Notes under the pieces: model-generated | Told to the model about the DNA's origin: nothing | The model's database searches: none | What the model saw: only the letters and a program-made list of their open reading frames with translations | DNA from: Kiritimatiellia bacterium | Lineage (GTDB): Bacteria; Verrucomicrobiota; Kiritimatiellia; RFP12; UBA1067 | NCBI GenBank assembly: GCA_017406465.1 | Contig: JAFQYM010000009.1 | Coordinates: 8,221 to 72,220, forward strand | Direction of reading: 5' to 3' | Length of the DNA stretch: 64,000 nt | Part shown: piece after piece, positions 19,959 to 49,199 of the stretch | How positions within the stretch are numbered: position 1 is the first letter of the stretch | Layout of the letters: each line of letters begins with the position of its first letter | Translations under genes and position numbers: made by a program

Positions 19959-21986
19959 TTAGGTTTCTTTATATGTGAGTATCATTTGTGCAACGTACTG
20001 CGAAATGTTGCCATTTGACGCAACATGCTTTAGCGTGTAAAGAAGATTTGCCCAATCCTCGCAGAATGCATTCGCCTCCTGCCGCGTCTTGGCAAGGAGC
20101 AAAAATGGCGTCGCCGTTTTGTCATTATCACAGGCAAACAGCTTAAGGTCTTTCCACTCATCGCTATTGTTGCAGTACTTCTTGATACTATAGCTGAATG
20201 ACGTCACTTCCACATCCGAATGCCTCTTGCGCAGCCAATCAAACTGCGCGGACAGCACATTGCTTGTAAATGGATCGTCTTGCGTGAAGAAATCTTCCCC
20301 ACCCTTCAAAAACACATAGAACAAATTCAATCCTGGCGAAAGCCTGCAATCTTTGCGCATAGGGCTGGAATTGCCTGTAAATTGCGCATAATCTTGAATG
20401 AAAGCCGCAACGACGGCATTCGAGTTAAGCCCCTTCAATTCTCGTGCCCAATCGTTCCCATTTCCATCTTCACTCAATGACAGTTCCTTGTTCTCCAACT
20501 CGCGCCGCTTGTCATAGAACTTGAGAAATGCCAGTTCCTCCGCCCTCGCAAGCAGGGCAGATTCGTTCGTCCCCGGCGCGGGGCCACGCGAACTCCCCCT
20601 CTTGTCGGCAAAGATGGCATTGCGCAATGCCGAATTTTTCGCGCTCCATATCTTTATGATCCGCAAGAGCGCGATTCCAATGACAAGCGCAAAAGCCATG
20701 ACAATCGATAGTATGCTTACAAAACTAGTCTGGCCGAAAGCACTATTCAACTTGGCACTTTTGGCGGCGAGATATGGCACCAGCGTACAGCCGACAATCA
20801 CGACAAACATCGGCTCAAATCCCCCGCATACGACAAGCCAGTCTCCACCGGAGAGGCCAAATTTCTCCATGTGCTTCTTCTTCATCACTGCATCATGTAG
20901 CGAAACGCCAGCCAATTGACAAACTGGCGCGACAATGGTGCCTAACACAACGACAATCCAAACCAGCCAAAAACCGTTCGACAAGAAAAACGCCCTGAAT
21001 CCCTCGGCCTTCCCAAGCCAACCATCCATATACAAAACCCATAGATCGTCAAACTCTAGAACCTTCCCTGTCGCAGTGCCCACATGCCCAGCAAGCCAAT
21101 GAGAGCCAGACCAAAACAGATATGCCAAGGCCGCAGCCCCTGAGCACATAATCAAATTCATGACAAGAGCAGCAGTAAGCGCGGCCCGGAATTGCCTTCC
21201 TGCCATGATTTTATCATCCTCGGCCGACACAAGCAGATTGCCGTTTATCTTTGCAAAAGTGTACACGGCACAAATGAAGGCGACTAATGCAGCCCAAACG
21301 GTTATTCCGCCAAGATGCTCCCAAACCCCAACTGGACAACGGGCAGACAAATTCAATATGCCACTTGCAAACACCATGAGGAGCGAGCAAATCCAGACGA
21401 GCGCTTCCACTAACGAGAAATCCTTCGGAGATTTCTTCGGAAAAAGAATAATCAAAAGCAACCCCATATAATAGCCATAGCTGCGAAGCGCTTTTGCCGC
21501 TGTTTCGGATATCACGCTATTGTCAACGGCATCTTGCGCGTAATGCAAGATGAACTTCATCTCAAAGAATCTGGCAAAAAAATATCCAGTCGGCAAAGCA
21601 ATCAACCACCACTTATATTTCCAAATCTTGCGACACGTCACCTTTAGCATTATCCAAATCCATTTCGCATCCCCCTTCATCGCACCCCAAAGGAAAAGCA
21701 CTAACAGCCAAACACCCAGCAACCCAAGTGACACTATAGACGCTAGCAGCGTTCGCATGAAGACCGTGAATATCCGTTCGGCATCAATGATGGGATTGCT
21801 GTTCAGAACATCATACCCCAATGGGAGAAGCCCCCACAGAAGCGGCGCGACAATCGCGAGACAGAGCCATCCCAACCGGCTGAATGCCGCATGCCCCAGC
21901 ACCTTGATCAAGGCGCACAGATCAACTAAACCACCCCACACGTTGACACTTGGCGGCAGACGCAGCAAAGACATTTTCTTACTCAT
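19959..21986 (-). CDS. Polytopic membrane protein with a cytoplasmic C-terminal domain, hypothetical
   Basis: More than 10 hydrophobic helices. Start chosen at the Met whose ATG overlaps the phosphatase stop (ATGAGTAAG); the track start at 22022 is also possible. Confidence 0.55.
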   Translation of the reverse strand: MSKKMSLLRLPPSVNVWGGLVDLCALIKVLGHAAFSRLGWLCLAIVAPLLWGLLPLGYDVLNSNPIIDAERIFTVFMRTLLASIVSLGLLGVWLLVLFLWGAMKGDAKWIWIMLKVTCRKIWKYKWWLIALPTGYFFARFFEMKFILHYAQDAVDNSVISETAAKALRSYGYYMGLLLIILFPKKSPKDFSLVEALVWICSLLMVFASGILNLSARCPVGVWEHLGGITVWAALVAFICAVYTFAKINGNLLVSAEDDKIMAGRQFRAALTAALVMNLIMCSGAAALAYLFWSGSHWLAGHVGTATGKVLEFDDLWVLYMDGWLGKAEGFRAFFLSNGFWLVWIVVVLGTIVAPVCQLAGVSLHDAVMKKKHMEKFGLSGGDWLVVCGGFEPMFVVIVGCTLVPYLAAKSAKLNSAFGQTSFVSILSIVMAFALVIGIALLRIIKIWSAKNSALRNAIFADKRGSSRGPAPGTNESALLARAEELAFLKFYDKRRELENKELSLSEDGNGNDWARELKGLNSNAVVAAFIQDYAQFTGNSSPMRKDCRLSPGLNLFYVFLKGGEDFFTQDDPFTSNVLSAQFDWLRKRHSDVEVTSFSYSIKKYCNNSDEWKDLKLFACDNDKTATPFLLLAKTRQEANAFCEDWANLLYTLKHVASNGNISQYVAQMILTYKET

Positions 21987-22641
21987 AGATGCTCCTTTCC
22001 GTATAAGGTTCCGTGAGAACAAAATCGTTGTCGCAAGACATTTGCCCGCTACAGCTGTTCAACATTAGTGAAATATGGCAGTTCGGCAACTGTCCCATCA
22101 CGTCAAACCACCTGACATCCCAGTGATACCACCTTGCCAAGAAGCACTTGATCGCCGTGCCGTGGGAAACGATAATGATGTTTTCAGGGCAGTCGGCGCG
22201 ATCGAAGCGGCGAAACAACGAATCCATGAACAGCGCCATGCGATCATAGACATCCGCACACGATTCGCCGTCGGGGAAGCGGTAGAAGAAATATCCGAAC
22301 TGCTCACGGAAAGCTCGATTCGCATCGTTCTCGTCCGTCGGTGGCATATTGCCGTATTCCTGCTCGCGCAATTCTGGATCTTGATAGTCAAATACCGGCT
22401 CTCGCCCTATTCCCTCCAACATCGCATTCTTGGTCTGCTCCGCCCGCACATACGGCGAACTGAACACCCCGAACGCCCCATCGCCAATCAACCCCGCAAT
22501 ACGCCGCCCCGCCTCTCGCGCCTGCGCAACGCCCGTGTCCGTCAACGCAATCTTCCAATCCGGAATCTTCGCATAGACCTCATGATCTACGTTCGCTTCC
22601 GACTCGCCGTGCCGGAGAAGTATGATGCGCTTAGGGGTCAT
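21979..22641 (-). CDS. Histidine phosphatase (phosphoglycerate-mutase-like) family protein
   Basis: N-terminal LLRHGESEAN catalytic motif and a C-terminal His (SHG). ATGA overlap with the upstream gene. Confidence 0.8.
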   Translation of the reverse strand: MTPKRIILLRHGESEANVDHEVYAKIPDWKIALTDTGVAQAREAGRRIAGLIGDGAFGVFSSPYVRAEQTKNAMLEGIGREPVFDYQDPELREQEYGNMPPTDENDANRAFREQFGYFFYRFPDGESCADVYDRMALFMDSLFRRFDRADCPENIIIVSHGTAIKCFLARWYHWDVRWFDVMGQLPNCHISLMLNSCSGQMSCDNDFVLTEPYTERSIYE

Positions 22642-25600
22642 GAGGGGTTGTCTCCACCTGATTCAAGGCGCTCTATACAAATGTGAGCAATAGCCAAGAA
22701 ACACGCCGCTGCTTGGATATTATGATCATGCTTTAAATATATTTTAAAAGTATATAGACAACAAAGCGCCGTCGTAAGAGTATACATGTCCGGTGTCATT
22801 TGTTTGTCTTTGAGCGCCGCCCTCCGTATTCGTCTCAATATCTTATAAACCAACGTAAACCGTCTATCGTTGGCAATGTAATCAGGCTCATCTTCATTAA
22901 CAGAAAACATCGCGTCGCATATGTATTTTCTGAATATGCGCACAAGGCGTGCCGCATATCGCGCACTACCACCAACACCTTCATCATTCCATAGGTCATT
23001 ATCAAACAACAAACTGATCGTCGCAGAAAACATGACATTAAAATCATGTGCGATATAGTCGCGTCTTGTCCTTGCAAAATCAATCAACCACACATCCTTC
23101 TCAGGGTTGCCATTCTTCTCATCAAGCATTATATTGGCATAATTCATATCTCCGTGAATAATACCCTGCTGACAATTAAATCGTTCTCCTGTGGTATCCG
23201 CTTGTACCAATTTATCAATCCGACCTTTTTCATCAAGCACTAATTTTCCATACCCAGAGATGTTGACAACTCCATTCCGACCTCCTTTCAACAGATTCTC
23301 GATTAACGTAATTATGCATTGTTTACATCGATTATCAGGATCTCTATTGTCGGATGAATATTTAAATTTATTATCATCGCTCGTCCTATTCTGTTCATCT
23401 CCGTTATAAAACACAACGATACTTTTACTATCGGGATAGAGTCGTTCTTTAATTGACTTCAAGATTGCACCATCTAATTTAGGCTCCACCTCGCTATTCT
23501 TGACAATCGCATATAGCGTTTGCCCTGGCATCGGATGTCGATATTTAGCCACATGCTCGGCTACTACACCTTTTAAAACAACTGTAATCTTGGAATAATC
23601 ATTCACTCCTTGTTTATTCTGTATCTCGTATGCCTCAATTGCATGGCGGCCAACATCATCCTTGCACAAACCATGAAATTCAAAGGCCTTAATCTTTGGG
23701 GCCCTACGAACACAAGCCTCTTCCTGCGAAACAAAGCACTCTACATCATAATACTTTGCGATTGGCATTCGAGACAAATAGTTGCCGACAAAACCATTTT
23801 TCGACAGCACCTTTTCCCCTAATATATGGTTGGGGAAAGACGACATGGCTTTCTCAATCTCAAGATCAAATGAAATGCCATGTATCTTTGGCAATATATC
23901 GTCAAATATTGAATCAAATACACTCGCATACTTTTCATAGTCGCAACGCGCGAAAAACTTTATGTCATTAGAAAGCTTTTCTTTCATCGTTGACAAATTA
24001 TGCGAAGGGTCGTTCTTCCCCGCGAAGGAGTACACGATAGCCGAATTGTCTTTATCGACGACTTTGTTCTTCGTCTCGATTCTTCCACATTCATTTGCTA
24101 TATATGGCCGAATAAAACGGAAGTACCGTTCGAACTCGGTCATAGTATTAAATGCCGAATCAATCTTAACGATTACAGGACTTTGCAATGGTTTTTCATG
24201 GCCCTCAATTGTTTTCCATGCCTTGAATGTCACAGCGGAACTCATGCCGCCGCCCATTGGCTTGATATGTATTCTCTTTCCGGGCAGTTTCTCTAGTACT
24301 TTATAAGTGAGATACATGCGTTCCTGCTCATGTTCGCTACAAAAACTTGCACTCCGTCCAGTCTCAATGGAAAACATGTCTCGATCACACAATCCAAGCC
24401 GTCCCAATGAATCCCATTCCTTTCCCCATTTCTGAAACGAAAGCAATGAAATCATATGACGGGGCAACTTTTCAACATCCTCTTTCCTAATAAACCAATC
24501 TGCCCCAGCTGCAAACGCACGTGAAATATGCCCCATATCATCATATCTCGAATAGATGACAACAGGGATTTGCGGAAAGAACTGCTTAATATATTTTATC
24601 AATTGATACCCAGAAGGATCGTGGCCCGGGTGATCGGCAAGTCTTAGATCCAACAATACAAAATCATAAGATTTATGTGAATCACTTATTTGCCTGAACT
24701 GAGATATAGCCTGTCGAACAACGGTATTGTCACCAGGTATATCCGCCCGAACGGAGATTGGCTCAATAGCCATCACAGGTTTTGTCCTGGCCTCAATATC
24801 TTTCTTTGCATTCTCCGCATCATCATCAATTAACAATCCTGAGAATCTGATTACTGGCGAGAAATACGCGACTTGCGAACCGCCCGGTTCATAAATCACT
24901 TCCTCGCTGAATTTCTTACCACAGTCCTCGTCGTTCAAGTTGTTGCCTTTGACGAATAGACTTGATAATGACGCCATTTCACTCTCGAAAACGACTTCCC
25001 TAAGTCGCTTGAACAACGACTTACTTTCATAGCGTCTTCTCAACTGTTCCTTGTACTTTTTCCAAACACCACCCGGATCATCCTTCAGATTCTTAACATC
25101 GATTGTCCCGTCCGTTCCATGAACATCTTCATCCAGCATGCAAAACCGCCTAAATGCACCAGCCATCCAGTCTTTTATGTCTTCAGCTGACAATCCTTCT
25201 TTCAATTTCTCATCCGACCTCCACGCTTTCATGCGCAATAGCATATCCCGCACAAGGTCGACAGTCAATGCGCCATCCGTTTTATTCGCTTTTCCCTTCT
25301 CAAACCGCAGGACAAATTCATTAGGAATCGAGAAACCAGCCCCATCTATGACACGGACTCGCTTTCCATTGCCCATCGCATATTCAAAATCAACGAAGAG
25401 CGGATAAAATTTCTCAACGCCAGAAAGCTTATCTATTTCAAGAGGGCCGTACCCAAGGCCACGACAGGCCTCTTTAATAACTTCAGCAAGCTTACCAACA
25501 GTTGATGCCGCCGTAACTGGAATAATTAACAATGGCACTATAGTAGCCACCTGTCCATCATTCGTAAGGCTTGCAAAATCTTGTGCATCATATGAGTACT

Positions 25601-26225
25601 GATACACTCGGTTGCTATGTTTTTTACTTTCCGCAGCCAATTTATCAGACAACTCCTTAACTTCAGCTTCACTACTTGGTAATTTCTTCAATCTCCATTT
25701 CGCCCCCGTCTCAACATCCGTCACATTGAAGATTTCCTTACGCATTGAACTAATTGCTTGAACATCCCATTTGACGTAATCATTATTAGCTTGTTTCCAC
25801 CTAGCGAAAACTTCTTGAAAAGCATTGTCCATATCAGAGACGCCGCCAGCATCACCCCCATCTCCCCAGTGGCAAAAAACATGGACAACATTGTCATGCG
25901 TGGGCTCGCCAACGACAACTTCCGTGATATTCTTTTCGATATAATCTTTGACAAAGGTTGTCAGACAATTATCAGCAACTCTTCCAGTGCGAATTACATC
26001 TTTTAGCTCATCAACGTCAGTACTCCTCTTAAGAATGATACAAACACTATCAATATCATCACTCCATTCCACCTTAATAGAAGCAGTGTCCCCTATGCTG
26101 TCTATGAGATCATCAGCACCATCATCACTACTATCAGAATCAAAACCCGATGACGCATCATATGGCATGCCATCATAAGCGTCAAACTCATCTTGATCTT
26201 TGGCAATAAAAACGGCGATTGTCAT
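22638..26225 (-). CDS. 1195-aa multidomain protein: acidic N-terminus, response-regulator receiver (REC) domain, RIO/Kdo-like atypical protein-kinase domain
   Basis: REC: LLIDDD acidic pocket, phospho-acceptor DFVLLDLRL, PVVIYS, FIRKE. Kinase: Gly-rich PMGGGMSSAVTFKAW, VIVKID Lys, catalytic IIHGDMNYANIML, WLIDFARTR DFG-like. Low GC. Confidence 0.65.
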   Translation of the reverse strand: MTIAVFIAKDQDEFDAYDGMPYDASSGFDSDSSDDGADDLIDSIGDTASIKVEWSDDIDSVCIILKRSTDVDELKDVIRTGRVADNCLTTFVKDYIEKNITEVVVGEPTHDNVVHVFCHWGDGGDAGGVSDMDNAFQEVFARWKQANNDYVKWDVQAISSMRKEIFNVTDVETGAKWRLKKLPSSEAEVKELSDKLAAESKKHSNRVYQYSYDAQDFASLTNDGQVATIVPLLIIPVTAASTVGKLAEVIKEACRGLGYGPLEIDKLSGVEKFYPLFVDFEYAMGNGKRVRVIDGAGFSIPNEFVLRFEKGKANKTDGALTVDLVRDMLLRMKAWRSDEKLKEGLSAEDIKDWMAGAFRRFCMLDEDVHGTDGTIDVKNLKDDPGGVWKKYKEQLRRRYESKSLFKRLREVVFESEMASLSSLFVKGNNLNDEDCGKKFSEEVIYEPGGSQVAYFSPVIRFSGLLIDDDAENAKKDIEARTKPVMAIEPISVRADIPGDNTVVRQAISQFRQISDSHKSYDFVLLDLRLADHPGHDPSGYQLIKYIKQFFPQIPVVIYSRYDDMGHISRAFAAGADWFIRKEDVEKLPRHMISLLSFQKWGKEWDSLGRLGLCDRDMFSIETGRSASFCSEHEQERMYLTYKVLEKLPGKRIHIKPMGGGMSSAVTFKAWKTIEGHEKPLQSPVIVKIDSAFNTMTEFERYFRFIRPYIANECGRIETKNKVVDKDNSAIVYSFAGKNDPSHNLSTMKEKLSNDIKFFARCDYEKYASVFDSIFDDILPKIHGISFDLEIEKAMSSFPNHILGEKVLSKNGFVGNYLSRMPIAKYYDVECFVSQEEACVRRAPKIKAFEFHGLCKDDVGRHAIEAYEIQNKQGVNDYSKITVVLKGVVAEHVAKYRHPMPGQTLYAIVKNSEVEPKLDGAILKSIKERLYPDSKSIVVFYNGDEQNRTSDDNKFKYSSDNRDPDNRCKQCIITLIENLLKGGRNGVVNISGYGKLVLDEKGRIDKLVQADTTGERFNCQQGIIHGDMNYANIMLDEKNGNPEKDVWLIDFARTRRDYIAHDFNVMFSATISLLFDNDLWNDEGVGGSARYAARLVRIFRKYICDAMFSVNEDEPDYIANDRRFTLVYKILRRIRRAALKDKQMTPDMYTLTTALCCLYTFKIYLKHDHNIQAAACFLAIAHICIERLESGGDNPS

Positions 26226-29200
26226 TTGTGTTCTCCTATTGGTAAAATGTTCATAATCGTATCGACCAGCACCATTTTCTCTGGGTATTTCTTAAAGAGC
26301 GCAGTCTCCACTACGGAAAATGGCAGTATCCGCGCTGAATCTGGAATGTTCGCAGGAGTGCCACGACCTGTCGTAATCACAACATACGGGACGAACTCTT
26401 TAAGCCTCTTGATAAAAGACTCAACCTTGCCACAATCCGTCCCCACGTGCGGCAACCACTTATCTATCAATCCTTGGTGGATAATCAAGATATCAAAACG
26501 CCAGTCGCGCAATGGGAGCTCCTCACAATTGGTCGCCGAAGACCCATTGACTATCGCATATCTCAGGAAGGCGTCGAATCTCCCTTTGTCTAATGTTATG
26601 AGCGAATCCAACCCAATCTTCTCTTCGCCAAACTTGGTCTCGTCAACGCACCAAATACCCATGCGACAAAATGTCTTGATCTCATCGGACCGATTTCGCA
26701 AAAACTTTGAAACCCGTTCGTCAACTATTAAAATACGCGAGAGCCCCGTCTCATACATCTTAGCAATAAGATGGTAATTGGTTAGTCGTTGATAGACGGA
26801 TTCATTCTGTCCAAGCATCATCATATCATTAAGATATGATTGTGTTCCGCTCAAAGGCTCCAAATACAACATTTTGTCTTGATTAAAATCATCGGATGTT
26901 GCATGCCGCATAAACGCAATGGATTTCCCTTCATTCCATTCCGCGTCTTTTTCATTATATACCAAAGATATTCCCAGTTCTTGCACAATCTTATTATCTA
27001 CACCATCTACGCCCTCCCCGCCGCTATTCCCTTTTATTTCATCATTCAAATCTTCTCCAAAACAACAAGGAAGCGTTATGATTCTCTCTTCATACTTCCG
27101 CAACATGACATCAGATTCTCTGTATGCCGAGCATAGATCCTTAACAAACATAGGCATCCCATTTGATTTATTCACTGCATTGCCTTGATACAAAGGATTG
27201 CCCTGCCTTATCTTAAAATCTGATGCATTGTTTCCAAGTGCTTCTGAAACTTTCGCGTGGTATTTCAATGCAATTGCGTAAACTGCTTCCAATCCCTTTT
27301 TATTGTCAACTGCCGCCATTCTTCTCAATTTGTATTTTTCAGCAAAGGCCGCGAACCCTTGTAAAAGACCATCCGGCGTGTCTCTTAAAATGCCCTGCAA
27401 CACAGAAAACCATCCATCCAATACCTTAAAAATCAATTCCCGTTCTGAATAATCAGCATCAGCTTTGACATCATTAATTTTTTTCCGTAATATCTCATTT
27501 TCACCAACAAAACCAAACACATTCCCATTTATATCAAGCGTTTTCGGCATAGCAACTATCAACGCCAAATACCAATAAACCTCATCTGCAATTATATTTG
27601 GGCGAAGCTCTCCATCTTTCAGTAAATTACCCACAATAGAACGGAACATTTCCTTAAAAACGAAATTCCACACATCCAGATTGCTCACCAACCCCTGCCC
27701 AGGATTCCCCGACGAACCTACTTCCGTCGTCAACACTCTCAACGCAGGCAAGCCAGAATCAAATCTCCTTCTCGTCTCACTCCAATAAGTTATCCACGCT
27801 TTAATCGCCTTGACTTTCAATTTCTTTGCGACAGCCTCTGCCGAAATCGTCCCATTCTGCAAGTCTTTCAACACATCATCATAAAATCCAGACGCATTCG
27901 GAACCATATCAACTTTGCCACTATTATCATTTGCCAAGACGCGGAATGGCAAATGAGGGTCTGCCTGTGAAGGGAACTTCGGCAAAACAACGAACGAATA
28001 GTTCCAATCCTCTTCGCTGTCATTCTTTGGCTTAACAAATCGACCGTCTTTTGGTGGTGGCACAACGAACACGCCTAATGTCCGCAGCTCTTTAATTATG
28101 TCCACATTGACACCAGTCGTATCACAGACAAAGGCAATATCTCTTGGACGAGGAATCGTGAAATGATACCCAAGATGATCTTCATTAGCACGTATTGGTG
28201 TTATTATAGGAATCCCTTTCGACATCCCTCCTATATCGGAGATAGAGCGCTTATTAAGATAACCAGCCGATATCTTCATCTCAGCAAGCCCCCAGTTCTC
28301 TCGCCGCAAAGACCCTGTCTCATCTATAAATGGCTTCTCTATCCTAATCTGCTGACAATGGTGCAATGGCATCCAAAGGCGATTGCCTAAACGTCCATCG
28401 CCAGGCACATCACCAATAAGTCGTCCCGCAATCCGCTTCAATTCATTTTCATTATATTTTAACAGACATGCATATTGCTCTTGATAAAAGACTGGCAACT
28501 GAGCCACAGAGCATTTCCCCGATAAAAACTCTGCAATGCATTCTTGCTCCGACGGTAGTAAAGAAGTCTGCAAGGCTTCTTTATACGTCTCATACCATCT
28601 TTTAAGCGACTCATCAGTTGTATGTGAAGTCCAAAGTCGTTTGCCTATGCCGCCATCGCTTGACGCCTCGCCCACAAGCCAACGCTCAATCTTCTCAATG
28701 GCATCCTTGTCCCGATTCTTTAGCAATAAATACTGTTTCTTGTAACATTCAGGCAAGGAGTCCACCGCCCCCTTCCCAGAGAGAAACTTTGAAATCTGCA
28801 TCCTTTCATCTCGCGTCAATCTCTGCAGGACATCTCTACACTCCTCGAACCACTTCAAAAGATCTTTATCAACCATCCAATAGTCATCGAACGTCGCAAA
28901 CACATTTGATATACCATCATAAACATCAACCAAAACCGCCCTTCCGTCATCGTCTGCGGCGAAATCGACATAAACATCCAGATTTGTCTTTTCTCCTTTA
29001 AACTTTGACCAACCATGCTTTGCTGCGTTTCGAATTACATTCTCAAGAATAGTAAAGAATGCATGAGAGCCGACAATGCCACCCGGCAATGCAACTGCTA
29101 AATCGCTTGAAAATTTATCATTGTCTCTCACACTCTTTTTAGCATTCGCGACATTGGATGCATTTTCAACAATAGGATCATCGCTATAGGTAATAAATTC

Positions 29201-31258
29201 AACAGACTTGCGTCCATCATTGAATCGCCTTGAGACATGCAGCTTTATAGTGTTTTCTTGGCTCCACCTAGCAGGACCTGAGACATTAGGGTCTTGGAAC
29301 TTAAATGCGTGAAGGCCTTCGCTACTTGCTATATATTCCAAGAGATGTCGTTGAGAAAGAAAGCGACGTGTCAAATCATTTACTAGTTTTGCGCTGCCAG
29401 CCCATGTAGGGAAATCTGTTGTTGCCGTCGCAGTATAATCCATTCTGTGCTGTATGTACTGATACAAAACTCTGTCATCCGGCATCGTCCCTATATTATG
29501 AGACAACGCCGCCAATACATGACTACCAATATTATGGGAACCATTGCGAGACATTATTGAGCCAATGGCAGACTTTGTATTTGCTATCTTAAGCTTATTC
29601 GTCGCTATTGCATTTCGAACTCCATCAAATACCCGATTAACTGAATTCGACACTAGTTGCAATGCTATTAAATCCAATTTCCTTTTACAACTAAAGACAA
29701 TGCAGCCCTTATCCAACGCATTAGAAGTCTCTGGAACAAGATACACCCATCTATCGTCCCCCTTTAAATAATCTTTTGTCCAATTAGTCAACGCCTCTCC
29801 TCGCTTACGCATTTTGGAAATCGCTTCTCTACTACTATTTTTAAACTTAATAGCAGCATCTTCCTGCGACCATGCCGCTACTACTGGAAATCTTTTCTCG
29901 ATTGATTGGCAATATGGTACCGCGAACTTCCTGAGATTGGAGTCGTCTGAGCACTTAAGAAATAACCTATACGAATCATTGTCACATAAATCATATTCTC
30001 GCAAATTCACTTGAATAGGCTTATCCTCTAACGCACTTAGTAGCCCCTTCTGAAATATATCGACTTCAGCAGACGTGTCAGAAAAAAGAGCCTTCTCTCC
30101 CGAAAATATCATTACATGATTAAGATCAAAGTACTGACCTAAAAGTGAATGCCTCAAAACTTCCCAAACGAAAGAACGAAGAGAACAATCTGAAATATCA
30201 ACAACTTGGATCTTCGCGCATTTATCAACAAGTGCTTCAGTATCTTTCATGAAATTAACTTGCGCAATTGGCGTTAAACGGCAAACTAGATTATCAACTC
30301 CCGCCCTCCAATTCTCATCTATGGCCGGATAGCCAAATTCATTAACGATTTTACCTACTAGACACGGTGCTAGCGACCCACCTTTTCGCAAAACTATTGA
30401 ATCCTTTTCTCCCAACAAATAAACGCCTTTGTGCAACGGCTCTTCACAAAAGACACCCGCAGAAAAACAATCAGCAATCCTATCTCTCGAAAACTTAACA
30501 AATACTTGAAATAAATTCTTCGAGTCAATATCATTGACAAGAGACAAATAGCGAACACTTTTAAATTCAGGTGGGAAATGAACCTCATTATTACCCATGT
30601 CTGTACAAAGAATTGGCAATGCAATATCAGTAAACACAACTGCCGAATTGCTTACCGCGTATTTTAATATATATTCGTAATTGTCACCGTATCCTGTTAC
30701 ATATACAAAATCTCCTTTGCTAAGTATACTTTTTATAGATGTGTTTACCGAGGTGTCCTGATATGCGCAGGGCTTATATTTATACGCAATATGCGGTATC
30801 AATTCCCTGGACAAGGTTTCAAAATGCAACTTAAAAGCATTCTGCATATCTACCTGAGACGAACTGTAAAATATCCTCACAGTAATTTCATTCTCATCAT
30901 TATTACCACTCGTATACATCCTATGTATTTCGCCAATCATTCTTCGTGCAACTAAATACGTTTGATCCGTTGCCGATATCCACCAGCGATAATACTTTAT
31001 CCCAGCGGAAAGAATGATGTCCTCGTTTGTCTGAACAGTCCCCGTGCAGAAAAGAGGGATTCTCTGCGCTTTTGCAATCTTCAAGAGTGCTTCACTCGGC
31101 GTGCCAATTGAAAGAATGCCAGACCAAGATTCACCTAAGATATCACTGCGCAGTGAAGCATCAACGAAACTCTCCCCCTTGTATTTGCCAATTATTACTT
31201 TAGATGAATTATCCAACTCATCATCAGCCATTCCCCTGTAAACCAAAATCTTATTCAT
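26222..31258 (-). CDS. 1678-aa giant protein: PBP1-like N-terminal region, doubled SHNIG His motif, GHKL/HATPase_c-like N-box, internal duplicated roughly 60-aa module, receiver-like C-terminus
   Basis: N-terminus IGTPSEALLKIAKAQRIPLF…GDFVYVTGYGDNYEYILKYA is periplasmic-binding-protein-type-I-like. RNGSHNIGSHVLAALSHNIG at residues 572-590. ENVIRNAAKHG…VDVYDGISNV at residues 738-786. Repeats FLSGKGAVDSLPECYKKQY…GIGKRLW and FLSGKCSVAQLPVFYQEQY…RLGNRLW. C-terminus ILIVDER…FDILIIHQG. ATGA-coupled to the next gene. Confidence 0.6.
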   Translation of the reverse strand: MNKILVYRGMADDELDNSSKVIIGKYKGESFVDASLRSDILGESWSGILSIGTPSEALLKIAKAQRIPLFCTGTVQTNEDIILSAGIKYYRWWISATDQTYLVARRMIGEIHRMYTSGNNDENEITVRIFYSSSQVDMQNAFKLHFETLSRELIPHIAYKYKPCAYQDTSVNTSIKSILSKGDFVYVTGYGDNYEYILKYAVSNSAVVFTDIALPILCTDMGNNEVHFPPEFKSVRYLSLVNDIDSKNLFQVFVKFSRDRIADCFSAGVFCEEPLHKGVYLLGEKDSIVLRKGGSLAPCLVGKIVNEFGYPAIDENWRAGVDNLVCRLTPIAQVNFMKDTEALVDKCAKIQVVDISDCSLRSFVWEVLRHSLLGQYFDLNHVMIFSGEKALFSDTSAEVDIFQKGLLSALEDKPIQVNLREYDLCDNDSYRLFLKCSDDSNLRKFAVPYCQSIEKRFPVVAAWSQEDAAIKFKNSSREAISKMRKRGEALTNWTKDYLKGDDRWVYLVPETSNALDKGCIVFSCKRKLDLIALQLVSNSVNRVFDGVRNAIATNKLKIANTKSAIGSIMSRNGSHNIGSHVLAALSHNIGTMPDDRVLYQYIQHRMDYTATATTDFPTWAGSAKLVNDLTRRFLSQRHLLEYIASSEGLHAFKFQDPNVSGPARWSQENTIKLHVSRRFNDGRKSVEFITYSDDPIVENASNVANAKKSVRDNDKFSSDLAVALPGGIVGSHAFFTILENVIRNAAKHGWSKFKGEKTNLDVYVDFAADDDGRAVLVDVYDGISNVFATFDDYWMVDKDLLKWFEECRDVLQRLTRDERMQISKFLSGKGAVDSLPECYKKQYLLLKNRDKDAIEKIERWLVGEASSDGGIGKRLWTSHTTDESLKRWYETYKEALQTSLLPSEQECIAEFLSGKCSVAQLPVFYQEQYACLLKYNENELKRIAGRLIGDVPGDGRLGNRLWMPLHHCQQIRIEKPFIDETGSLRRENWGLAEMKISAGYLNKRSISDIGGMSKGIPIITPIRANEDHLGYHFTIPRPRDIAFVCDTTGVNVDIIKELRTLGVFVVPPPKDGRFVKPKNDSEEDWNYSFVVLPKFPSQADPHLPFRVLANDNSGKVDMVPNASGFYDDVLKDLQNGTISAEAVAKKLKVKAIKAWITYWSETRRRFDSGLPALRVLTTEVGSSGNPGQGLVSNLDVWNFVFKEMFRSIVGNLLKDGELRPNIIADEVYWYLALIVAMPKTLDINGNVFGFVGENEILRKKINDVKADADYSERELIFKVLDGWFSVLQGILRDTPDGLLQGFAAFAEKYKLRRMAAVDNKKGLEAVYAIALKYHAKVSEALGNNASDFKIRQGNPLYQGNAVNKSNGMPMFVKDLCSAYRESDVMLRKYEERIITLPCCFGEDLNDEIKGNSGGEGVDGVDNKIVQELGISLVYNEKDAEWNEGKSIAFMRHATSDDFNQDKMLYLEPLSGTQSYLNDMMMLGQNESVYQRLTNYHLIAKMYETGLSRILIVDERVSKFLRNRSDEIKTFCRMGIWCVDETKFGEEKIGLDSLITLDKGRFDAFLRYAIVNGSSATNCEELPLRDWRFDILIIHQGLIDKWLPHVGTDCGKVESFIKRLKEFVPYVVITTGRGTPANIPDSARILPFSVVETALFKKYPEKMVLVDTIMNILPIGEHK

Positions 31259-31278: not shown

Positions 31279-32430
31279 TTATTTGATATTTTGGCCAATT
31301 TCTTCATCCAAAACAACTTCTTGTCCATTAGAATCAAATCCAACAACTATTAATGGAAAGAAAATCTCTCCCTGAGAATCATATGAAATTTCACCCACGA
31401 TAGAATGATATTTGCTTATACGCCGAAATCCTTCTATCAATTTATCACTAGATTTGGCATTTTTATACGCCTCATTATACAACATCAGTGCTTCATATGC
31501 AAAAGCGCCAACAATTGTAGGTTCTCTCCCATAAGCACGGGAATATTCATTTACAAACGCTATCCGCTCCGGAGTATTTATTTTCACGCCAAATTCTGTA
31601 TCAAGAAAGATGATATTAGATAAATCTTTTACATGAGAACGCTGATCAGAAGCAACCAATGATATTTCTGTCAAGATCTTACCACTAAACCGACACTCCT
31701 TTAAATAGTTCAAAGAAGATATATAAGCTGGACCAAAACCTGTTATAAAAATGGCATCAGGCTTTGAATCTACCAATTTCATAATTTGAGCCTTGACATC
31801 AACATCACTAATATCAAAGCGTTCTATGGGATACACAACACCATCTTTCCCATATTGAGATTTAAATATTGAAATCGCATCATCTCCACTTTGATCATTG
31901 ATTGCGAAGACTGCAATTCTATTAATTTTCAATATGTCATGTGCATATTTAGCCATAACTTTTGCCTGAAGAGCTACAGGAATCCACGCACGAAAAACCA
32001 AATCACTTAATTTCGTTACATCAGACGCACCAGTACCAAAGGCAACCAACGGCATATGCTCCTCATTCAACCGTGGAATAAACTGCGATACAGGCGTATT
32101 CCCGAAAGCCAGAACCCCCTTTAGCCGCTTCATTTGCAAAAGGCGAGCAAATGCCAACACAGTATCTTTGGAGGTGTATCTTCCATCCTCTACAATCAGC
32201 TCAAACGGTTGTTCATTACCAAACCGTCCTTCTAATTTCTGCTCTGCTATCTTTATGGAATTAAATATTTCCTGCCCCATTACAGAAACAGAACCCGTCA
32301 ATGGCAGGATCGCTCCAATCCGAATTACATCATCTGGTGCGGACTTATTCGTTGCCTTGTACGCCAGTAACGACACAATGCCAATCAGCACGACTGCGCC
32401 AATCGCAATCAGCAACTTATTTTTCTTCAT
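31279..32430 (-). CDS. Periplasmic binding protein, type I (LivK/LivJ-like ligand-binding protein), N-terminally anchored
   Basis: Signal/anchor MKKNKLLIAIGAVVLIGIVSLLAY. PBP1 core RIGAILPLTGSVSVMGQE…GVLAFGNTPV…IAVFAINDQSGDD. RBS AAAGGAAAAC. Very AT-rich. Confidence 0.75.
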   Translation of the reverse strand: MKKNKLLIAIGAVVLIGIVSLLAYKATNKSAPDDVIRIGAILPLTGSVSVMGQEIFNSIKIAEQKLEGRFGNEQPFELIVEDGRYTSKDTVLAFARLLQMKRLKGVLAFGNTPVSQFIPRLNEEHMPLVAFGTGASDVTKLSDLVFRAWIPVALQAKVMAKYAHDILKINRIAVFAINDQSGDDAISIFKSQYGKDGVVYPIERFDISDVDVKAQIMKLVDSKPDAIFITGFGPAYISSLNYLKECRFSGKILTEISLVASDQRSHVKDLSNIIFLDTEFGVKINTPERIAFVNEYSRAYGREPTIVGAFAYEALMLYNEAYKNAKSSDKLIEGFRRISKYHSIVGEISYDSQGEIFFPLIVVGFDSNGQEVVLDEEIGQNIK

Positions 32431-34227: not shown

Positions 34228-34240
34228 CGCTTCGGTCTCC

Positions 34241-34954
34241 TCACTCGAAATAGTTCTTTGACAGCCAGTTCGGATCGAGGAACTGGCGGGAATCGGATGT
34301 CTCGGCCTTGACCTCGCCCTGCGACAGGAACACGGCACGATCAATCCATGAAAGCAGGTCAAGGCGGTGCTCAACCATCACAATCGCGCGTTTCGCATCC
34401 TCCTTCGCGAAGCGGCGGACGCGCTCGATGATGTCCTGCGCAGACTTGGGCGAAAGCCCTGCGGACGGCTCGTCCAAGAGGTAGAGTCGTTGTGGACGCA
34501 TGAACACCATCGCGAGCGCAAGCGCCTGACGCTGCCCGCCAGAAAGAGAACCTGCACGCTGTCCGAGCTTCGGCACAAGGAAGTCGAATAGCGCGAGCAT
34601 CTCGTCCCTTGCAGCGGCGTATACCGTCTTAGGAAGTGACATCCCAGCAAGCTGCAAATTTTCCTCTACAGTCTGTCCAGGAAAGATGTTGTCCGTCTGG
34701 CGCAGATAGCCGAGTCCAAGGCGTACACGCTCCTCTACCGACTTGCCCATCAGCGATTCACCGCCCAATGCAATATCGCCCGCCGTAAGCGGCAACGCAC
34801 CTACCGTCGCCTTGAGGAGCGTCGATTTCCCGCAACCGTTCGGTCCCGCGATCAGCACAGCGTCCCCCTCGCGCACCGTAAGACTCACGTCATTCAGCAC
34901 CGGCCTCTCGCCATAGCCGCAGGAGAGATGGTCTATCTTGAGCAGTTCACTCAT
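34241..34954 (-). CDS. livF: Branched-chain amino acid ABC transporter ATP-binding protein LivF
   Basis: Walker A GPNGCGKST, LSGGQRQALALA, DEPSAGL. Typical LivF length. Operon order H-M-G-F. Confidence 0.85.
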   Translation of the reverse strand: MSELLKIDHLSCGYGERPVLNDVSLTVREGDAVLIAGPNGCGKSTLLKATVGALPLTAGDIALGGESLMGKSVEERVRLGLGYLRQTDNIFPGQTVEENLQLAGMSLPKTVYAAARDEMLALFDFLVPKLGQRAGSLSGGQRQALALAMVFMRPQRLYLLDEPSAGLSPKSAQDIIERVRRFAKEDAKRAIVMVEHRLDLLSWIDRAVFLSQGEVKAETSDSRQFLDPNWLSKNYFE

Positions 34955-35763
34955 ATCGCCATCCCTCCCGACAAGCCCATGTAGAGTTCACGCACGGCAG
35001 GGTTCTCCAGAACCTCCTTCTGCGTGCCGTGCGTATGGACGGTTCCCTCGTGCAAAAAGTAGATGTAATCCGCGAGATCGCGCACCACGCCCATGTTGTG
35101 CTCGATAAGTGCAATAGTCAGCTTCTGCTCCGCGACAAGGCTGCGGATCAAATCAACCATCTTCTTCGTCATCGCCGGCGAAAGCGCCGCCGTCGGCTCG
35201 TCCAAGAGAAGAAGCGCAGGGCGCAGCGCGACGATACGCGCAAGCGCGAGAAGCTTCTGCTGTCCGTAGGAAAGCTCGCCAGCCGGCTCGTCCGCCTTGT
35301 CCGCAAGCCCCACGAACTCCAGCCACTTCATCGCGCGTTCACGGCGATCCTTCTCGCGCGCCTCTGCACGCCACCACGCAAGCGTCGTCGCAAGCGAGTA
35401 GTCGCTACGGTGCAGGAACGCGACTTCAATGTTCTCGGCGACGGAGAGTGCGGGAAACACACGCACGTCCTGGAATAGCCGCCCGACATGCCTCCGCGCA
35501 ATCTTGTAAGGCGGCAAGCCCGTGACGTCCATACCGTTCAGAAAAACCCTGCCGGAATCCGGCGCGAGGTTCCCGCCGATTACATGGAAAAGCGTTGTCT
35601 TGCCCGCACCGTTCGGGCCAACGAGCGCTGTGACCTGTCCGACCTTGCACGTCAGATTGACGTTTTGAAGCGCGACAAAAGAGCCAAAGCTCTTCGCCAC
35701 GTTCTCGACCCGCAGTTCGACGGGCTGGATGATGCGCGGATCGCTATTTGATTGCATACGCAC
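34951..35763 (-). CDS. livG: Branched-chain amino acid ABC transporter ATP-binding protein LivG
   Basis: Walker A GPNGAGKTT, LSYGQQKLLALARIV, LLLDEPTAAL. Confidence 0.85.
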   Translation of the reverse strand: MRMQSNSDPRIIQPVELRVENVAKSFGSFVALQNVNLTCKVGQVTALVGPNGAGKTTLFHVIGGNLAPDSGRVFLNGMDVTGLPPYKIARRHVGRLFQDVRVFPALSVAENIEVAFLHRSDYSLATTLAWWRAEAREKDRRERAMKWLEFVGLADKADEPAGELSYGQQKLLALARIVALRPALLLLDEPTAALSPAMTKKMVDLIRSLVAEQKLTIALIEHNMGVVRDLADYIYFLHEGTVHTHGTQKEVLENPAVRELYMGLSGGMAI

Positions 35764-36613
35764 CTGCCAGTCCTTTGGGTTTCATGTAGATGAGAACGAT
35801 CAGCAACACGCCGTAGATGATCTCGCGAAGATTCGCCGCAATGGCGTCCGGCAGCCCCACAAACCGCAAAAGCTCGGGCAGGATGACCATGAACGCAACG
35901 CCCGCCATCGGCCCTTTCAAGTTGCCAGATCCGCCTACGAGCAGAATACAGGCAATAAAGATGGACTCTGTGAGCGTAAAGCTCGTCGGGTCGATATAAG
36001 TGATGTAGCTTGCAAAGCACACGCCAGGCACGGCCGCCACCGCCGCCGAAAAGACCATTGCGCGGATGTACTGCCCCTTCGGGCATATCGCCAGCGTCTG
36101 CGCCGCCGCCTCATCGTCGCGGAGCGCCTTGAGAGAAAGCGCGAACGGGCTATTGCAGACGAGGTGCATGAAACCCAGCACAAGCACGAAGAGAACGAGC
36201 GTAAAAAGGAAGTAGGCAGGCACCGACTCTATACCAATACCAAAGAACAACGGACGCGGAATGCCAGAAATACCATACGGCCCACGCGTTAGGTCTGTCC
36301 AGTTGTAGAGCGTGACATAAACGATCATCTGGAAACCGATGGTCGCCAGTACGAACGCTTCGTTTCTGAAGCGGAGCGCAGCATGACCGAATAGCCAGCC
36401 GACAAGCGCACAAAGCGCGATGGCCGCAGGAAGCGTCACGAAAAATGGCAAACCAAGCTTAAGCGACAGAAGTGCGTATGTGTAAGCACCAAGTCCATAA
36501 AACGCCGCCTGTGCCATCGTGAGGAGCCCACCGAATCCAATGAGCAGATTTGCCGAGAGGGCCAGCATCCCGTAGATACCCAGCATCACGCCGATGTGGA
36601 GAAGATAGTTCAT
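35744..36613 (-). CDS. livM: Branched-chain amino acid ABC transporter permease LivM
   Basis: Polytopic permease, overlapping neighbours in the H-M-G-F arrangement. Confidence 0.8.
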   Translation of the reverse strand: MNYLLHIGVMLGIYGMLALSANLLIGFGGLLTMAQAAFYGLGAYTYALLSLKLGLPFFVTLPAAIALCALVGWLFGHAALRFRNEAFVLATIGFQMIVYVTLYNWTDLTRGPYGISGIPRPLFFGIGIESVPAYFLFTLVLFVLVLGFMHLVCNSPFALSLKALRDDEAAAQTLAICPKGQYIRAMVFSAAVAAVPGVCFASYITYIDPTSFTLTESIFIACILLVGGSGNLKGPMAGVAFMVILPELLRFVGLPDAIAANLREIIYGVLLIVLIYMKPKGLAGAYAIK

Positions 36614-49110: not shown

Positions 49111-49199
49111 TTAAGGTTTCCTTTCTCCACCGCCTTGTCGTAGAATTTGAAGTTGTAGAAATACGCGACGTCCTTCATGTCAGTGTCTGGCCTCGGCCT
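49111..49199 (-). other. Second duplicated scar of the giant gene 3' end, forming a 23-codon mini-ORF (MKDVAYFYNFKFYDKAVEKGNLK) between paralogs C and B
   Basis: In frame after the stop of C. Its own stop overlaps the ATG of B (cttaaATGAaaaag). Confidence 0.6.

What the first reader, a model, noticed from the sequence alone, without database searches (positions are those of the whole stretch)
26222..31258. 1678-aa protein with a doubled SHNIG histidine motif upstream of a GHKL-like N-box, a tandemly duplicated 60-aa module and a PBP1-like N-terminus
Residues 572-590 read RNGSHNIGSHVLAALSHNIG (nt about 29490-29545). This is two SHNIG copies 11 residues apart.

About 160 residues downstream lies ENVIRNAAKHG…VDVYDGISNV (nt about 28900-29055). 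That resembles the N-box and G1 of histidine-kinase/GHKL ATPases. I could not find a convincing G2 box or a canonical HisKA H-box.

Residues about 818-965 (nt about 28360-28810) contain two copies of the module FLSGK(G/C)xVxxLPxxYxxQYxxL…G(I/L)GxRLW, an intragenic duplication.

The N-terminal 250 aa look like a cytoplasmic type-I periplasmic-binding-protein fold, echoing the secreted PBP1 encoded just upstream. The C-terminus has receiver-like hhhhDE / hhhhHQG strands.

The architecture may be an unconventional sensor kinase or a non-enzymatic scaffold.
Basis: partly seen in the sequence, partly recalled or inferred. Interest (0 to 1): 0.7.

Follow-up and report, generated by a model that had tools for sequence, protein, structure and literature searches.

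The report
Giant soluble histidine-kinase-like sensor protein
This 1678-residue protein is a very divergent, membrane-free histidine-kinase-type sensor with a ligand-binding domain copied from its neighbouring transporter protein, and it belongs to a large, unnamed family found almost only in uncultured bacteria.

Summary
The ORF (26222-31258, minus strand), the two SHNIG copies, the ENVIRNAAKHG box and the tandem modules are all present.

No Pfam, NCBIfam, PADLOC, PHROG or PDB sequence profile matches the protein. An exhaustive HMMER search nevertheless found about 2,900 relatives (50%-identity clusters). They share a core of about 1,000 residues that starts at the SHNIG motif. In 120 aligned members H575, H580, H587 and the N-box residues (E739, N740, R743, N744, K747, H748) never vary.

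The N-terminus is homologous to the adjacent periplasmic binding protein (hhalign 95.9%, E 6e-9). The duplicated module of about 80 residues sits in the ATP lid. It is duplicated only in this protein.

The "receiver-like" C-terminus is not supported, and the G1 box is not canonical.

Across 22 loci the gene sits beside a binding protein, often a Liv-type ABC importer, and receiver-domain proteins.

Most likely it is a ligand-gated soluble kinase that signals to the downstream receiver-kinase. Kinase activity is inferred, not shown.

The parts
26222..31258 (-). Whole gene for the 1678-aa soluble histidine-kinase-like protein. Identical to 'hypothetical protein IJG18_01870' of a Kiritimatiellae metagenome-assembled genome.
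   Evidence: No transmembrane segment. No hit in Pfam, NCBIfam, PADLOC or PHROGs.
30344..31258 (-). N-terminal cytoplasmic domain (aa 1-305) resembling a type-I periplasmic binding protein; proposed ligand sensor.
   Evidence: hhalign of aa 49-304 against the profile of the system's binding proteins: 95.9%, E 6e-9, with controls below 1%. The HMM of those binding proteins hits the window protein at E 1.1e-6 and at least 30 of 198 family members. The structure model of this part was poor (pLDDT 38).
29672..30343 (-). Region of unknown fold between the sensor domain and the kinase core (aa 306-529).
   Evidence: Model confidence is low across aa 211-500 of the N-terminal model; only aa 501-529 are confidently modelled, in the second model. 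No family hit.
29420..29671 (-). Helical hairpin like the dimerisation/phosphotransfer (DHp) domain of histidine kinases (aa 530-613): helix aa 530-586, loop, helix aa 593-613.
29489..29551 (-). Family signature SRNGSHNIGSHVLAALSHNIG (aa 570-590). H575 is the proposed phospho-acceptor; H580 and H587 are also invariant.
   Evidence: Invariant in 120 homologues.
28229..29401 (-). ATP-binding domain of the histidine-kinase (Bergerat/GHKL) type, aa 620-1010, including the lid insertion.
29012..29044 (-). N-box ENVIRNAAKHG (aa 739-749).
   Evidence: E739, N740, R743, N744, A746, K747 and H748 are invariant. hhalign aligns it to the EnvZ N-box, but not significantly.
28364..28897 (-). All-helical insertion in the ATP-lid position (aa 788-965). 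It holds two tandem modules of about 80 aa (aa 799-878 and aa 884-964).
   Evidence: The modules are 36% identical, E 3e-17. The insertion is absent from P0002 and P0003. The module is single-copy in 18 other sampled members and double only here.
28277..28303 (-). G2-like box RENWGLAEM (aa 986-994).
   Evidence: W989, G990, A992 and E993 are invariant.
26969..28201 (-). Family-specific middle region (aa 1020-1430): a beta-rich part followed by a helical part. Function unknown.
   Evidence: Confidently modelled. No match in PDB or to the profiles tested.
26225..26968 (-). C-terminal alpha/beta domain (aa 1431-1678). Invariant residues: R1451, H1452, S1470, G1471, Q1473, D1513, E1514, R1515, H1594, G1596, D1599, TTGRG 1629-1633. 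Not a demonstrable receiver.
31279..32430 (-). Exported or membrane-anchored type-I binding protein (Peripla_BP_6; 383 aa counted from MKKNK). It is the most conserved partner gene.
   Evidence: Pfam E 1.5e-27. Present next to the giant gene in 17 of 22 loci.
22638..26225 (-). Downstream 1195-aa protein with a complete receiver domain and an APH-like kinase domain (Pfam TCAD9); proposed phosphotransfer target. Its start overlaps the giant gene's stop by 4 nt.
   Evidence: Pfam hits TCAD9 E 8e-22 and Response_reg E 1.6e-8. Receiver residues D466-468, D526, S559 and K581; kinase residues HGD1026 and D1049.
21979..22641 (-). Histidine-phosphatase-superfamily enzyme (His_Phos_1); proposed reset step.
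   Evidence: Pfam E 1.8e-29. Conserved in related Kiritimatiellae loci.
19959..22022 (-). Membrane protein with about 8 transmembrane segments, conserved in related loci.
34241..37494 (-). Liv-type ABC importer (two permeases, two ATPases). It is probably part of the system and is separated from it here by a YhcG nuclease gene.
   Evidence: Pfam. The same importer precedes the binding protein and the giant gene in distant loci L017, L018, L020, L021 and L024.

Best explanation
**What it is.** The gene encodes a soluble, very divergent histidine-kinase-type sensor. Its domains, from N- to C-terminus, are:
- a cytoplasmic ligand-binding domain related to the neighbouring periplasmic binding protein;
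- a helical hairpin carrying an invariant histidine motif;
- a histidine-kinase ATP-binding domain whose lid holds a duplicated helical insertion;
- about 650 residues of family-specific domains of unknown function.

**Proposed mechanism.**
1. A solute captured by the periplasmic binding protein is imported by the linked Liv-type ABC transporter, or is signalled through the linked membrane protein.
2. The N-terminal binding-protein-like domain senses it in the cytoplasm.
3. This switches autophosphorylation on H575.
4. The phosphoryl group passes to D526 of the receiver domain in the protein encoded immediately downstream, and this controls that protein's APH-like kinase domain.
5. The next gene's histidine-phosphatase-family enzyme resets the system.

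**Shown by tool results:** the fold assignment, motif invariance, homology of the N-terminus to the binding protein, and the conserved gene neighbourhood.

**Inferred:** ATP binding, autophosphorylation, the choice of H575, the identity of the partner, and the role of the phosphatase.
For: **Fold**
- The model of aa 501-1678 has pLDDT 83.3 and pTM 0.82.
- The Foldseek top 50 PDB hits are all histidine kinases, with probability up to 0.99. The best viral hits are also histidine kinases.

**Conservation**
- H575, H580, H587, the N-box and the G2-like box are invariant in 120 homologues.
- H575 lies 11 residues before the end of the first hairpin helix. From my recollection of EnvZ and HK853 (not tested here), the phospho-accepting histidine sits at a similar distance in those kinases.

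**N-terminus**
- Homology to the adjacent binding protein: hhalign 95.9%, E 6e-9, controls below 1%.
- The same kind of N-terminus occurs in at least 30 of 198 family members.

**Neighbourhood in 22 loci**
- A binding protein is adjacent in 17 loci, Liv-type permeases in 11, ABC ATPases in 13 and receiver-domain proteins in 12.
- The receiver proteins include NtrC-type sigma-54 activators in L017 and L018.
- No canonical histidine kinase was seen among the genes of these loci that were scanned against Pfam.

**This operon**
- The downstream protein has a complete receiver (D466-468, D526, S559, K581) and intact kinase motifs.
- Gene starts and stops overlap by 4 nt, which fits a single operon.
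Against: - No sequence method links the protein to HisKA or HATPase_c. hhalign against EnvZ aligns only the N-box, at 0.5% probability.
- The G1 box (DxGxG, adenine contact) is absent from the family, so ATP binding is not assured.
- All Foldseek E-values are above 1e-3.
- Model confidence dips to 52-64 exactly at the SHNIG motif, so its geometry is uncertain.
- I could not obtain a residue-level structural alignment to confirm that H575 superposes on the phospho-accepting histidine.
- The roughly 650-residue C-terminal half, with its own invariant polar residues, is unexplained and may carry the real activity.
- Five of the 22 loci lack the adjacent binding protein.
Confidence: 0.6

Rival explanations
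1. The operon is an anti-phage or other conflict system of the 'defensive two-component' kind, like Detocs. The giant protein would sense infection and activate a toxic receiver-effector: here the APH-like kinase, elsewhere a Cad1-type adenosine deaminase. The histidine phosphatase or small stand-alone receivers would act as buffers against accidental firing. This differs from the best explanation in biological role, not in kinase chemistry.
For: - The region is low in GC (0.38-0.45 against about 0.6 in the flanks).
- A PD-(D/E)XK YhcG nuclease that matches candidate defence models (PDC-S02, E 1e-120) is adjacent.
- The gene is mosaic. DNA identity to L005 (98.4%) and L001 (82.7%) collapses at the same point, nt 29402, just after the hairpin.
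- N-termini vary and include SAM methyltransferase and N6/N4 DNA-methylase domains.
- TCAD9 is a Pfam 'ternary complex associated domain'. The paper on ternary conflict systems (PMC7159879) mentions an APH-like kinase among their effector domains, but does not name TCAD9.
- The 1190-aa neighbour in L017 matches the CRISPR-associated CARF_ADA deaminase (E 1.6e-49).
- Stand-alone receivers of 120-148 aa occur in several loci. They recall DtcB of Detocs (bioRxiv 10.1101/2023.01.24.525353).
Against: - No PADLOC model matches the giant protein or any other core gene.
- The most conserved partners are a solute-binding protein and a nutrient-type ABC importer. Several loci use an NtrC-type transcription activator, which is typical of metabolic regulation.
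- There is no match in phage or plasmid collections.
- Only one locus carries the deaminase.
Confidence: 0.25
2. The protein keeps a histidine-kinase fold but is not a histidine autokinase. It could be a pseudokinase scaffold or ATPase, or a serine or small-molecule kinase like other kinases of this fold (PDK/BCKDK, SpoIIAB). In that case the invariant histidines would serve another role such as metal binding, and the conserved C-terminal domains would carry the real activity.
For: - The G1 box is degenerate across the family.
- Three invariant histidines spaced i, i+5 and i+12, with low model confidence around them, could form a metal site.
- The C-terminal 650 residues hold many invariant polar residues (RH 1451-1452, SGxQ, DER 1513-1515, HQG 1594-1596, TTGRG 1629-1633). 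This suggests a separate active site.
Against: - The invariant N-box and G2-like box argue that nucleotide binding is retained.
- A two-helix hairpin with an invariant histidine precedes the ATP-binding domain, as in true histidine kinases.
- Complete receiver domains are encoded nearby in 12 of 22 loci, and no other kinase was found to serve them.
Confidence: 0.15

Closest known systems
Classical two-component sensor histidine kinases (DHp + CA core; e.g. HK853, WalK, CpxA, PhoQ, BceS, NifL)
   Same: - A predicted helical hairpin carrying a conserved histidine, followed by a Bergerat-fold ATP-binding domain.
- An N-box of the form NxxxNAxK[HY].
- A receiver-domain partner encoded next door.
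   Different: - No detectable sequence similarity to HisKA or HATPase_c.
- The H-box reads SHNIGSHVL..SHN, with three invariant histidines.
- There is no DxGxG G1 box.
- The ATP lid carries an insertion of 18-237 residues.
- There is no membrane anchor.
- A conserved C-terminal extension of about 650 residues has unknown folds.
Detocs defensive two-component system (DtcA/DtcB/DtcC; bioRxiv 10.1101/2023.01.24.525353)
   Same: - A large soluble sensor kinase followed by a receiver fused to a non-transcriptional effector.
- Extra stand-alone receivers in some loci.
- Effector swapping between loci.
   Different: - DtcA is described as resembling a typical two-component sensor kinase with TPR repeats. 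The present protein matches no kinase profile.
- It is instead linked to a binding protein and an ABC importer.
- No PADLOC hit.
Sensor kinases that use solute-binding-protein (Venus-flytrap) domains, or that signal through an ABC transporter. Examples recalled from general knowledge, not tested here: BvgS/EvgS, BceS-BceAB, the PhoR-Pst system, the cytoplasmic amide sensor AmiC.
   Same: - A type-I binding-protein fold is used as the sensor.
- The kinase gene is genetically coupled to an ABC transporter and its binding protein.
   Different: - Here the binding-protein-like domain is cytoplasmic, fused to a soluble kinase, and homologous to the operon's own periplasmic binding protein.
- I know of no described kinase with this arrangement. 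A motif search of the literature found nothing.
APH-like kinase effector of the 'ternary' conflict systems (Kaur et al. 2020, PMC7159879); Pfam calls such a domain TCAD9
   Same: The downstream protein carries the TCAD9 kinase domain.
   Different: The defining vWA-MoxR/VMAP or STAND NTPase components of those systems were not seen among the window and locus genes scanned against Pfam. That paper reports no histidine kinases among the vWA-associated effector domains of those systems.

Membership tests
Two-component histidine kinases (DHp + CA) | Helical-hairpin (DHp) domain with a conserved, exposed histidine in helix 1 | tested here: met
Two-component histidine kinases (DHp + CA) | Bergerat-fold ATP-binding domain that is structurally closest to histidine kinases | tested here: met
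Two-component histidine kinases (DHp + CA) | Nucleotide-binding boxes N, G1 (DxGxG), F and G2 (GxGxG) | tested here: inconclusive
   The N-box is invariant and of the kinase type. The G2-like box ENWGLAEM is invariant but reduced. G1 is absent: the consensus is W[TD]x[LM]SDV.
Two-component histidine kinases (DHp + CA) | Significant match to HisKA / HATPase_c sequence profiles | tested here: not met
   There are no Pfam or NCBIfam hits at E <= 0.1. Family profiles give no meaningful hit to PDB sequences at E <= 10: none with A5, and only chance hits at E above 1 to unrelated proteins with A1 and A3.
Two-component histidine kinases (DHp + CA) | Cognate receiver-domain protein encoded nearby | tested here: met
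   The window's downstream protein has a complete receiver. Receiver proteins occur in 12 of 22 loci, including NtrC-type regulators.
Two-component histidine kinases (DHp + CA) | ATP-dependent autophosphorylation on histidine and transfer to aspartate | not testable with these tools
   This needs biochemistry.
Type-I periplasmic binding proteins (Peripla_BP_6), for the N-terminal domain | Homology to the family by profile comparison | tested here: met
   hhalign 95.9%, E 6e-9 over 234 columns, with controls below 1%. hmmsearch E 1.1e-6. The domain is below Pfam's reporting threshold.
Type-I periplasmic binding proteins (Peripla_BP_6), for the N-terminal domain | Two-lobed alpha/beta fold with a ligand cleft | tested here: inconclusive
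   The N-terminal model is poor (pLDDT 38). Only an alternating strand/helix pattern is seen in aa 1-210.
Receiver (CheY-like) domains, for the C-terminus | Structural or sequence similarity to receivers | tested here: not met
Receiver (CheY-like) domains, for the C-terminus | Phospho-accepting aspartate after strand 3 and lysine after strand 5 | tested here: not met
   The corresponding positions read IIHQG (invariant H1594) and RILPF, with no lysine.
Detocs / known anti-phage systems | Match to curated defence-system models | tested here: not met
   PADLOC gives no hit for the giant protein, the binding protein, the receiver-kinase, the phosphatase or the membrane protein. Only the neighbouring YhcG nuclease and the L017 deaminase match.

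The most novel reading that the evidence does not exclude
The protein would represent an undescribed class of soluble giant histidine kinases, with about 2,900 sequence clusters, mostly from uncultured Kiritimatiellae, Lentisphaerae and Bacteroidota-group bacteria. In this reading the class forms a modular 'import-and-sense' system with these features:
- A cytoplasmic copy of the transporter's own binding protein reads the imported ligand.
- The kinase drives interchangeable receiver-effectors: an APH-like kinase, a sigma-54 activator, and possibly a Cad1-type deaminase.
- The unexplained, invariant C-terminal domain (RH...DER...HQG...TTGRG) performs a new catalytic or phosphorelay step.
Probability: 0.3. 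Interest if true: 0.75.

Novelty: new variant of a known kind. Interest (0 to 1): 0.6.

Why it matters
If the protein is an active kinase, histidine kinases extend well beyond what current sequence profiles detect. A family of thousands of members goes unlabelled in genome annotation of gut and rumen bacteria.

It would also provide a clear case of a sensor built by copying the transporter's own binding protein into the cytoplasm. That couples uptake directly to signalling.

Three features point to an evolutionarily dynamic signalling module and give concrete hypotheses to test:
- the sharp recombination boundary right after the invariant histidine motif;
- the variable ATP-lid insertions;
- the interchangeable outputs.

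Tried and rejected
**Sequence searches that found nothing for the giant protein**
- Pfam, NCBIfam, PADLOC and PHROGs gave no hits.
- phmmer and hmmsearch against PDB sequences gave only chance hits, using the single sequence and profiles of 3, 21 and 66 sequences.

**Structure work with limited return**
- The structure prediction of aa 1-520 from two sequences failed (pLDDT 38). No fold search was attempted on it.
- The afdb50 fold library was unavailable.

**Hypotheses tested and rejected for the C-terminus**
- Receiver domain: rejected.

**Other checks**
- The 333-aa gene that follows the giant gene in L001 has no detectable counterpart in the window.
- No tandem repeat exists at the DNA level in the duplicated region.
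- tblastn found no match in plasmid or phage collections.
- No paper contains the motifs.
- Cluster look-ups gave no names for family members.

Full report
**1. The observation**

The ORF at 26222-31258 on the minus strand encodes 1678 aa.
- SHNIG at aa 574 and aa 586 (nt 29489-29539);
- ENVIRNAAKHG at aa 739-749;
- VDVYDGISNV at aa 777-786;
- FLSGK at aa 825 and aa 911.

The two repeated modules are 36% identical over 81 aa (E 3e-17), so the unit is about 80-86 aa rather than 60. They leave no tandem repeat at the DNA level. The protein has no predicted transmembrane segment.

**2. No known sequence family, but a very large unnamed one**

Pfam, NCBIfam, PADLOC and PHROGs give no hit. PDB sequences give only chance hits.

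A word-indexed search of 5.8 billion proteins found only three relatives:
- an identical 'hypothetical protein' from a Kiritimatiellae metagenome-assembled genome;
- P0002, 87% identical over the aligned 46% of the query (essentially identical over the first ~610 residues);
- P0003, 68% identical over the same span.

An exhaustive HMMER profile search with aa 501-1678 found far more: 2,930 cluster representatives at E <= 1e-3, of which 790 score below 1e-30. These relatives share one contiguous core that begins at the SHNIG region and runs to the C-terminus. Their N-termini vary from about 200 to 770 aa.

None of the 120 listed hits of a second search carries a Pfam domain that could lie in the core. 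Some N-termini are SAM methyltransferases or N6/N4 DNA methylases.

Alignments of 66 and 120 members show these invariant residues:
- SRNGSHNIGSHVL...H, that is H575, H580 and H587;
- E739, N740, R743, N744, A746, K747 and H748 (the N-box);
- W989, G990, A992 and E993;
- a further set in the C-terminal half: R1451, H1452, S1470, G1471, Q1473, D1513, E1514, R1515, H1594, G1596, D1599 and TTGRG 1629-1633.

The family has no DxGxG.

**3. Fold**

An AlphaFold2 model of aa 501-1678, built with the 66-sequence alignment, is confident (pLDDT 83.3, pTM 0.82). It shows, in order:
- a long helix (aa 530-586) that contains the first SHNIG;
- a loop that starts at the second SHNIG;
- a return helix (aa 593-613);
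- an alpha/beta domain interrupted by an all-helical insertion (aa 788-946 in the model), which is the duplicated module;
- a beta-rich segment and then a helical segment;
- a C-terminal alpha/beta domain.

Fold searches point only to histidine kinases:
- All 50 best Foldseek hits are DHp+CA histidine kinases, with probability up to 0.99. Their E-values are only 0.04-0.4.
- The best hits in the viral structure library are also histidine kinases.
- No Hsp90, MutL or GyrB appears in the listed hits, and no receiver domain does either.

H575 lies 11 residues before the end of helix 1. From my recollection of EnvZ and HK853, the phospho-acceptor sits at a comparable position. This is an inference, because no residue-level superposition was available. 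Model confidence also dips to 52-64 at the motif.

**4. N-terminus**

The direct model of aa 1-520 failed (pLDDT 38). Profile comparison succeeded where it did not:
- Residues 49-304 align to the profile of the system's own periplasmic binding proteins at 95.9% probability, E 6e-9, over 234 columns.
- Six reversed or shuffled controls, and three other segments of the giant protein, all scored at or below 3.6%.
- The binding-protein HMM also hits the N-termini of at least 30 of 198 sampled family members.

**5. The insertion**

The duplicated module lies between the last strand before the lid and the G2-like box, which is the ATP-lid position.
- Across 120 members this site varies in several length classes: 18-35, 48-57, 67-155, and up to 237 residues.
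- The module occurs once in 18 other sampled members.
- It occurs twice only in the window protein.
- P0002 and P0003 lack it.

**6. C-terminus**

The 'receiver-like' reading is not supported.
- hhalign against receivers from the same loci gives 2.3-2.4%.
- The would-be aspartate position holds an invariant histidine.
- A histidine-phosphatase reading, prompted by the RH and HQG motifs, also failed (0.9%).

This conserved half of the protein remains unexplained.

**7. Gene context**

In the window the genes are packed tightly on the minus strand, in this order:
- LivHMGF-type ABC importer (34241-37494);
- YhcG PD-(D/E)XK nuclease;
- binding protein (Peripla_BP_6);
- the giant protein;
- a 1195-aa receiver plus TCAD9/APH-like kinase, whose start overlaps the giant gene's stop by 4 nt;
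- a His_Phos_1 phosphatase, again with a 4-nt overlap;
- a membrane protein with about 8 transmembrane segments.

The downstream receiver has all its functional residues, and its kinase motifs are intact.

I collected 25 related loci and clustered their ORFs, leaving out four near-duplicate loci and adding the window region, which gave 22 loci in all. Among these 22:
- the binding protein is adjacent in 17;
- Liv permeases are present in 11 and ABC ATPases in 13;
- receiver proteins are present in 12.

In the distant Ignavibacteriales locus (L017), which was scanned gene by gene against Pfam, the order is LivH-LivM-LivG-LivF, then the binding protein, then an accessory SAM methyltransferase, then the giant gene, then two small unknown proteins, then an NtrC-type sigma-54 activator. 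In the Caldithrix locus (L018) an NtrC-type activator and a radical-SAM accessory gene were likewise confirmed by Pfam. ORF clustering gives L018 and the Kiritimatiellae locus L021 the same gene order. L024 carries a B12-binding radical-SAM gene in the accessory position.

One locus adds a 1190-aa protein whose C-terminus matches the CRISPR-associated CARF_ADA deaminase (E 1.6e-49).

No canonical histidine kinase was found in the genes scanned in these operons. That makes the giant protein the obvious partner of the receivers.

**8. Mosaicism**

DNA identity to L005 (98.4%) and to L001 (82.7%) covers the binding-protein gene and codons 1 to about 619 of the giant gene. In both comparisons it then falls below detection at the same nucleotide, 29402, immediately after the hairpin. 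It returns only at the phosphatase gene.

The region is also low in GC, 0.38-0.45 against about 0.6 in the flanks.

This pattern suggests that sensor and output halves are shuffled by recombination at the invariant motif.

**9. Interpretation**

Best explanation (confidence 0.6): a ligand-gated, soluble histidine kinase of a divergent, undescribed family. It would read an imported or periplasmically captured solute through a cytoplasmic copy of the transporter's binding protein. It would then phosphorylate the receiver of the adjacent APH-like kinase, and the phosphatase would reset the system.

Rivals:
- The same chemistry used as a Detocs-like defence system (0.25). The island, the mosaicism, the nuclease, the TCAD9 domain and the deaminase favour this. 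The nutrient-type importer, the NtrC regulators and the absence of PADLOC hits argue against it.
- A non-autokinase protein with a kinase fold (0.15). The missing G1 box and the unexplained, invariant C-terminal half favour this.

**10. Novelty**

The fold and the signalling logic are known. The following appear to be undescribed:
- the family itself, its H-box and its lid insertions;
- the fused cytoplasmic binding-protein domain;
- the 650-residue C-terminal extension.

No paper in the searched library contains the motifs. No member has a name other than 'hypothetical protein' or a name taken from a fused methyltransferase. I rate it a new variant of a known kind, with interest 0.6.

Noticed in passing
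window 29402 (within the giant gene); compared with L005 and L001: There is a sharp mosaic boundary. DNA is 98.4% identical to L005 and 82.7% identical to L001 from the binding-protein gene through codon ~619. Identity then becomes undetectable until the His_Phos_1 gene, and the breakpoint is the same in both comparisons. This suggests recombination at the invariant histidine motif.
   Followed up: partly
window 32845-34374 (-): A YhcG/DUF1016 PD-(D/E)XK nuclease with a C-terminal DUF4357 sits between the Liv importer genes and the binding-protein gene. It matches PADLOC candidate defence models PDC-S02 (E 1e-120) and PDC-S14. A YhcG-family gene recurs next to the cassette in several Kiritimatiellae loci.
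   Followed up: partly
window 14922-17381 (-) and 17406-19928 (-): Two large proteins (819 and 840 aa) downstream of the operon have no Pfam, PHROG or PADLOC hit. The C-terminal ~200 aa of the 840-aa protein are about 50% identical to small proteins in related loci (family F5).
   Followed up: partly
window 11379-14348 (+); also both ends of L001: A 989-aa FtsH-like protein with two AAA modules and a peptidase M41 domain lies beside the island. In L001, homologues flank the cassette on both sides. This may mark a recurrent insertion site.
   Followed up: no
L017 15577-19149: A 1190-aa protein next to the Ignavibacteriales family member has a C-terminal adenosine deaminase. It matches the CRISPR-associated CARF_ADA (Cad1-type) model at E 1.6e-49.
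   Followed up: partly
L017, L018, L020, L024 and fused N-termini of P0090, P0165, P0192, P0053 and others: SAM methyltransferase, radical-SAM, B12-radical-SAM or N6/N4 DNA-methylase domains lie immediately upstream of the kinase core or are fused to it. Their role is unknown.
   Followed up: no
window 48136-55653 (-): A second low-GC stretch (0.47-0.49) encodes three proteins without Pfam hits (324, 378 and 343 aa) next to a 1472-aa protein with bacterial TSP3 repeats.
   Followed up: no
L019 (2.7-kb contig labelled Promethearchaeota): One family member lies on a very short contig binned to an Asgard archaeon. This may be a binning artefact rather than a real archaeal occurrence.
   Followed up: no
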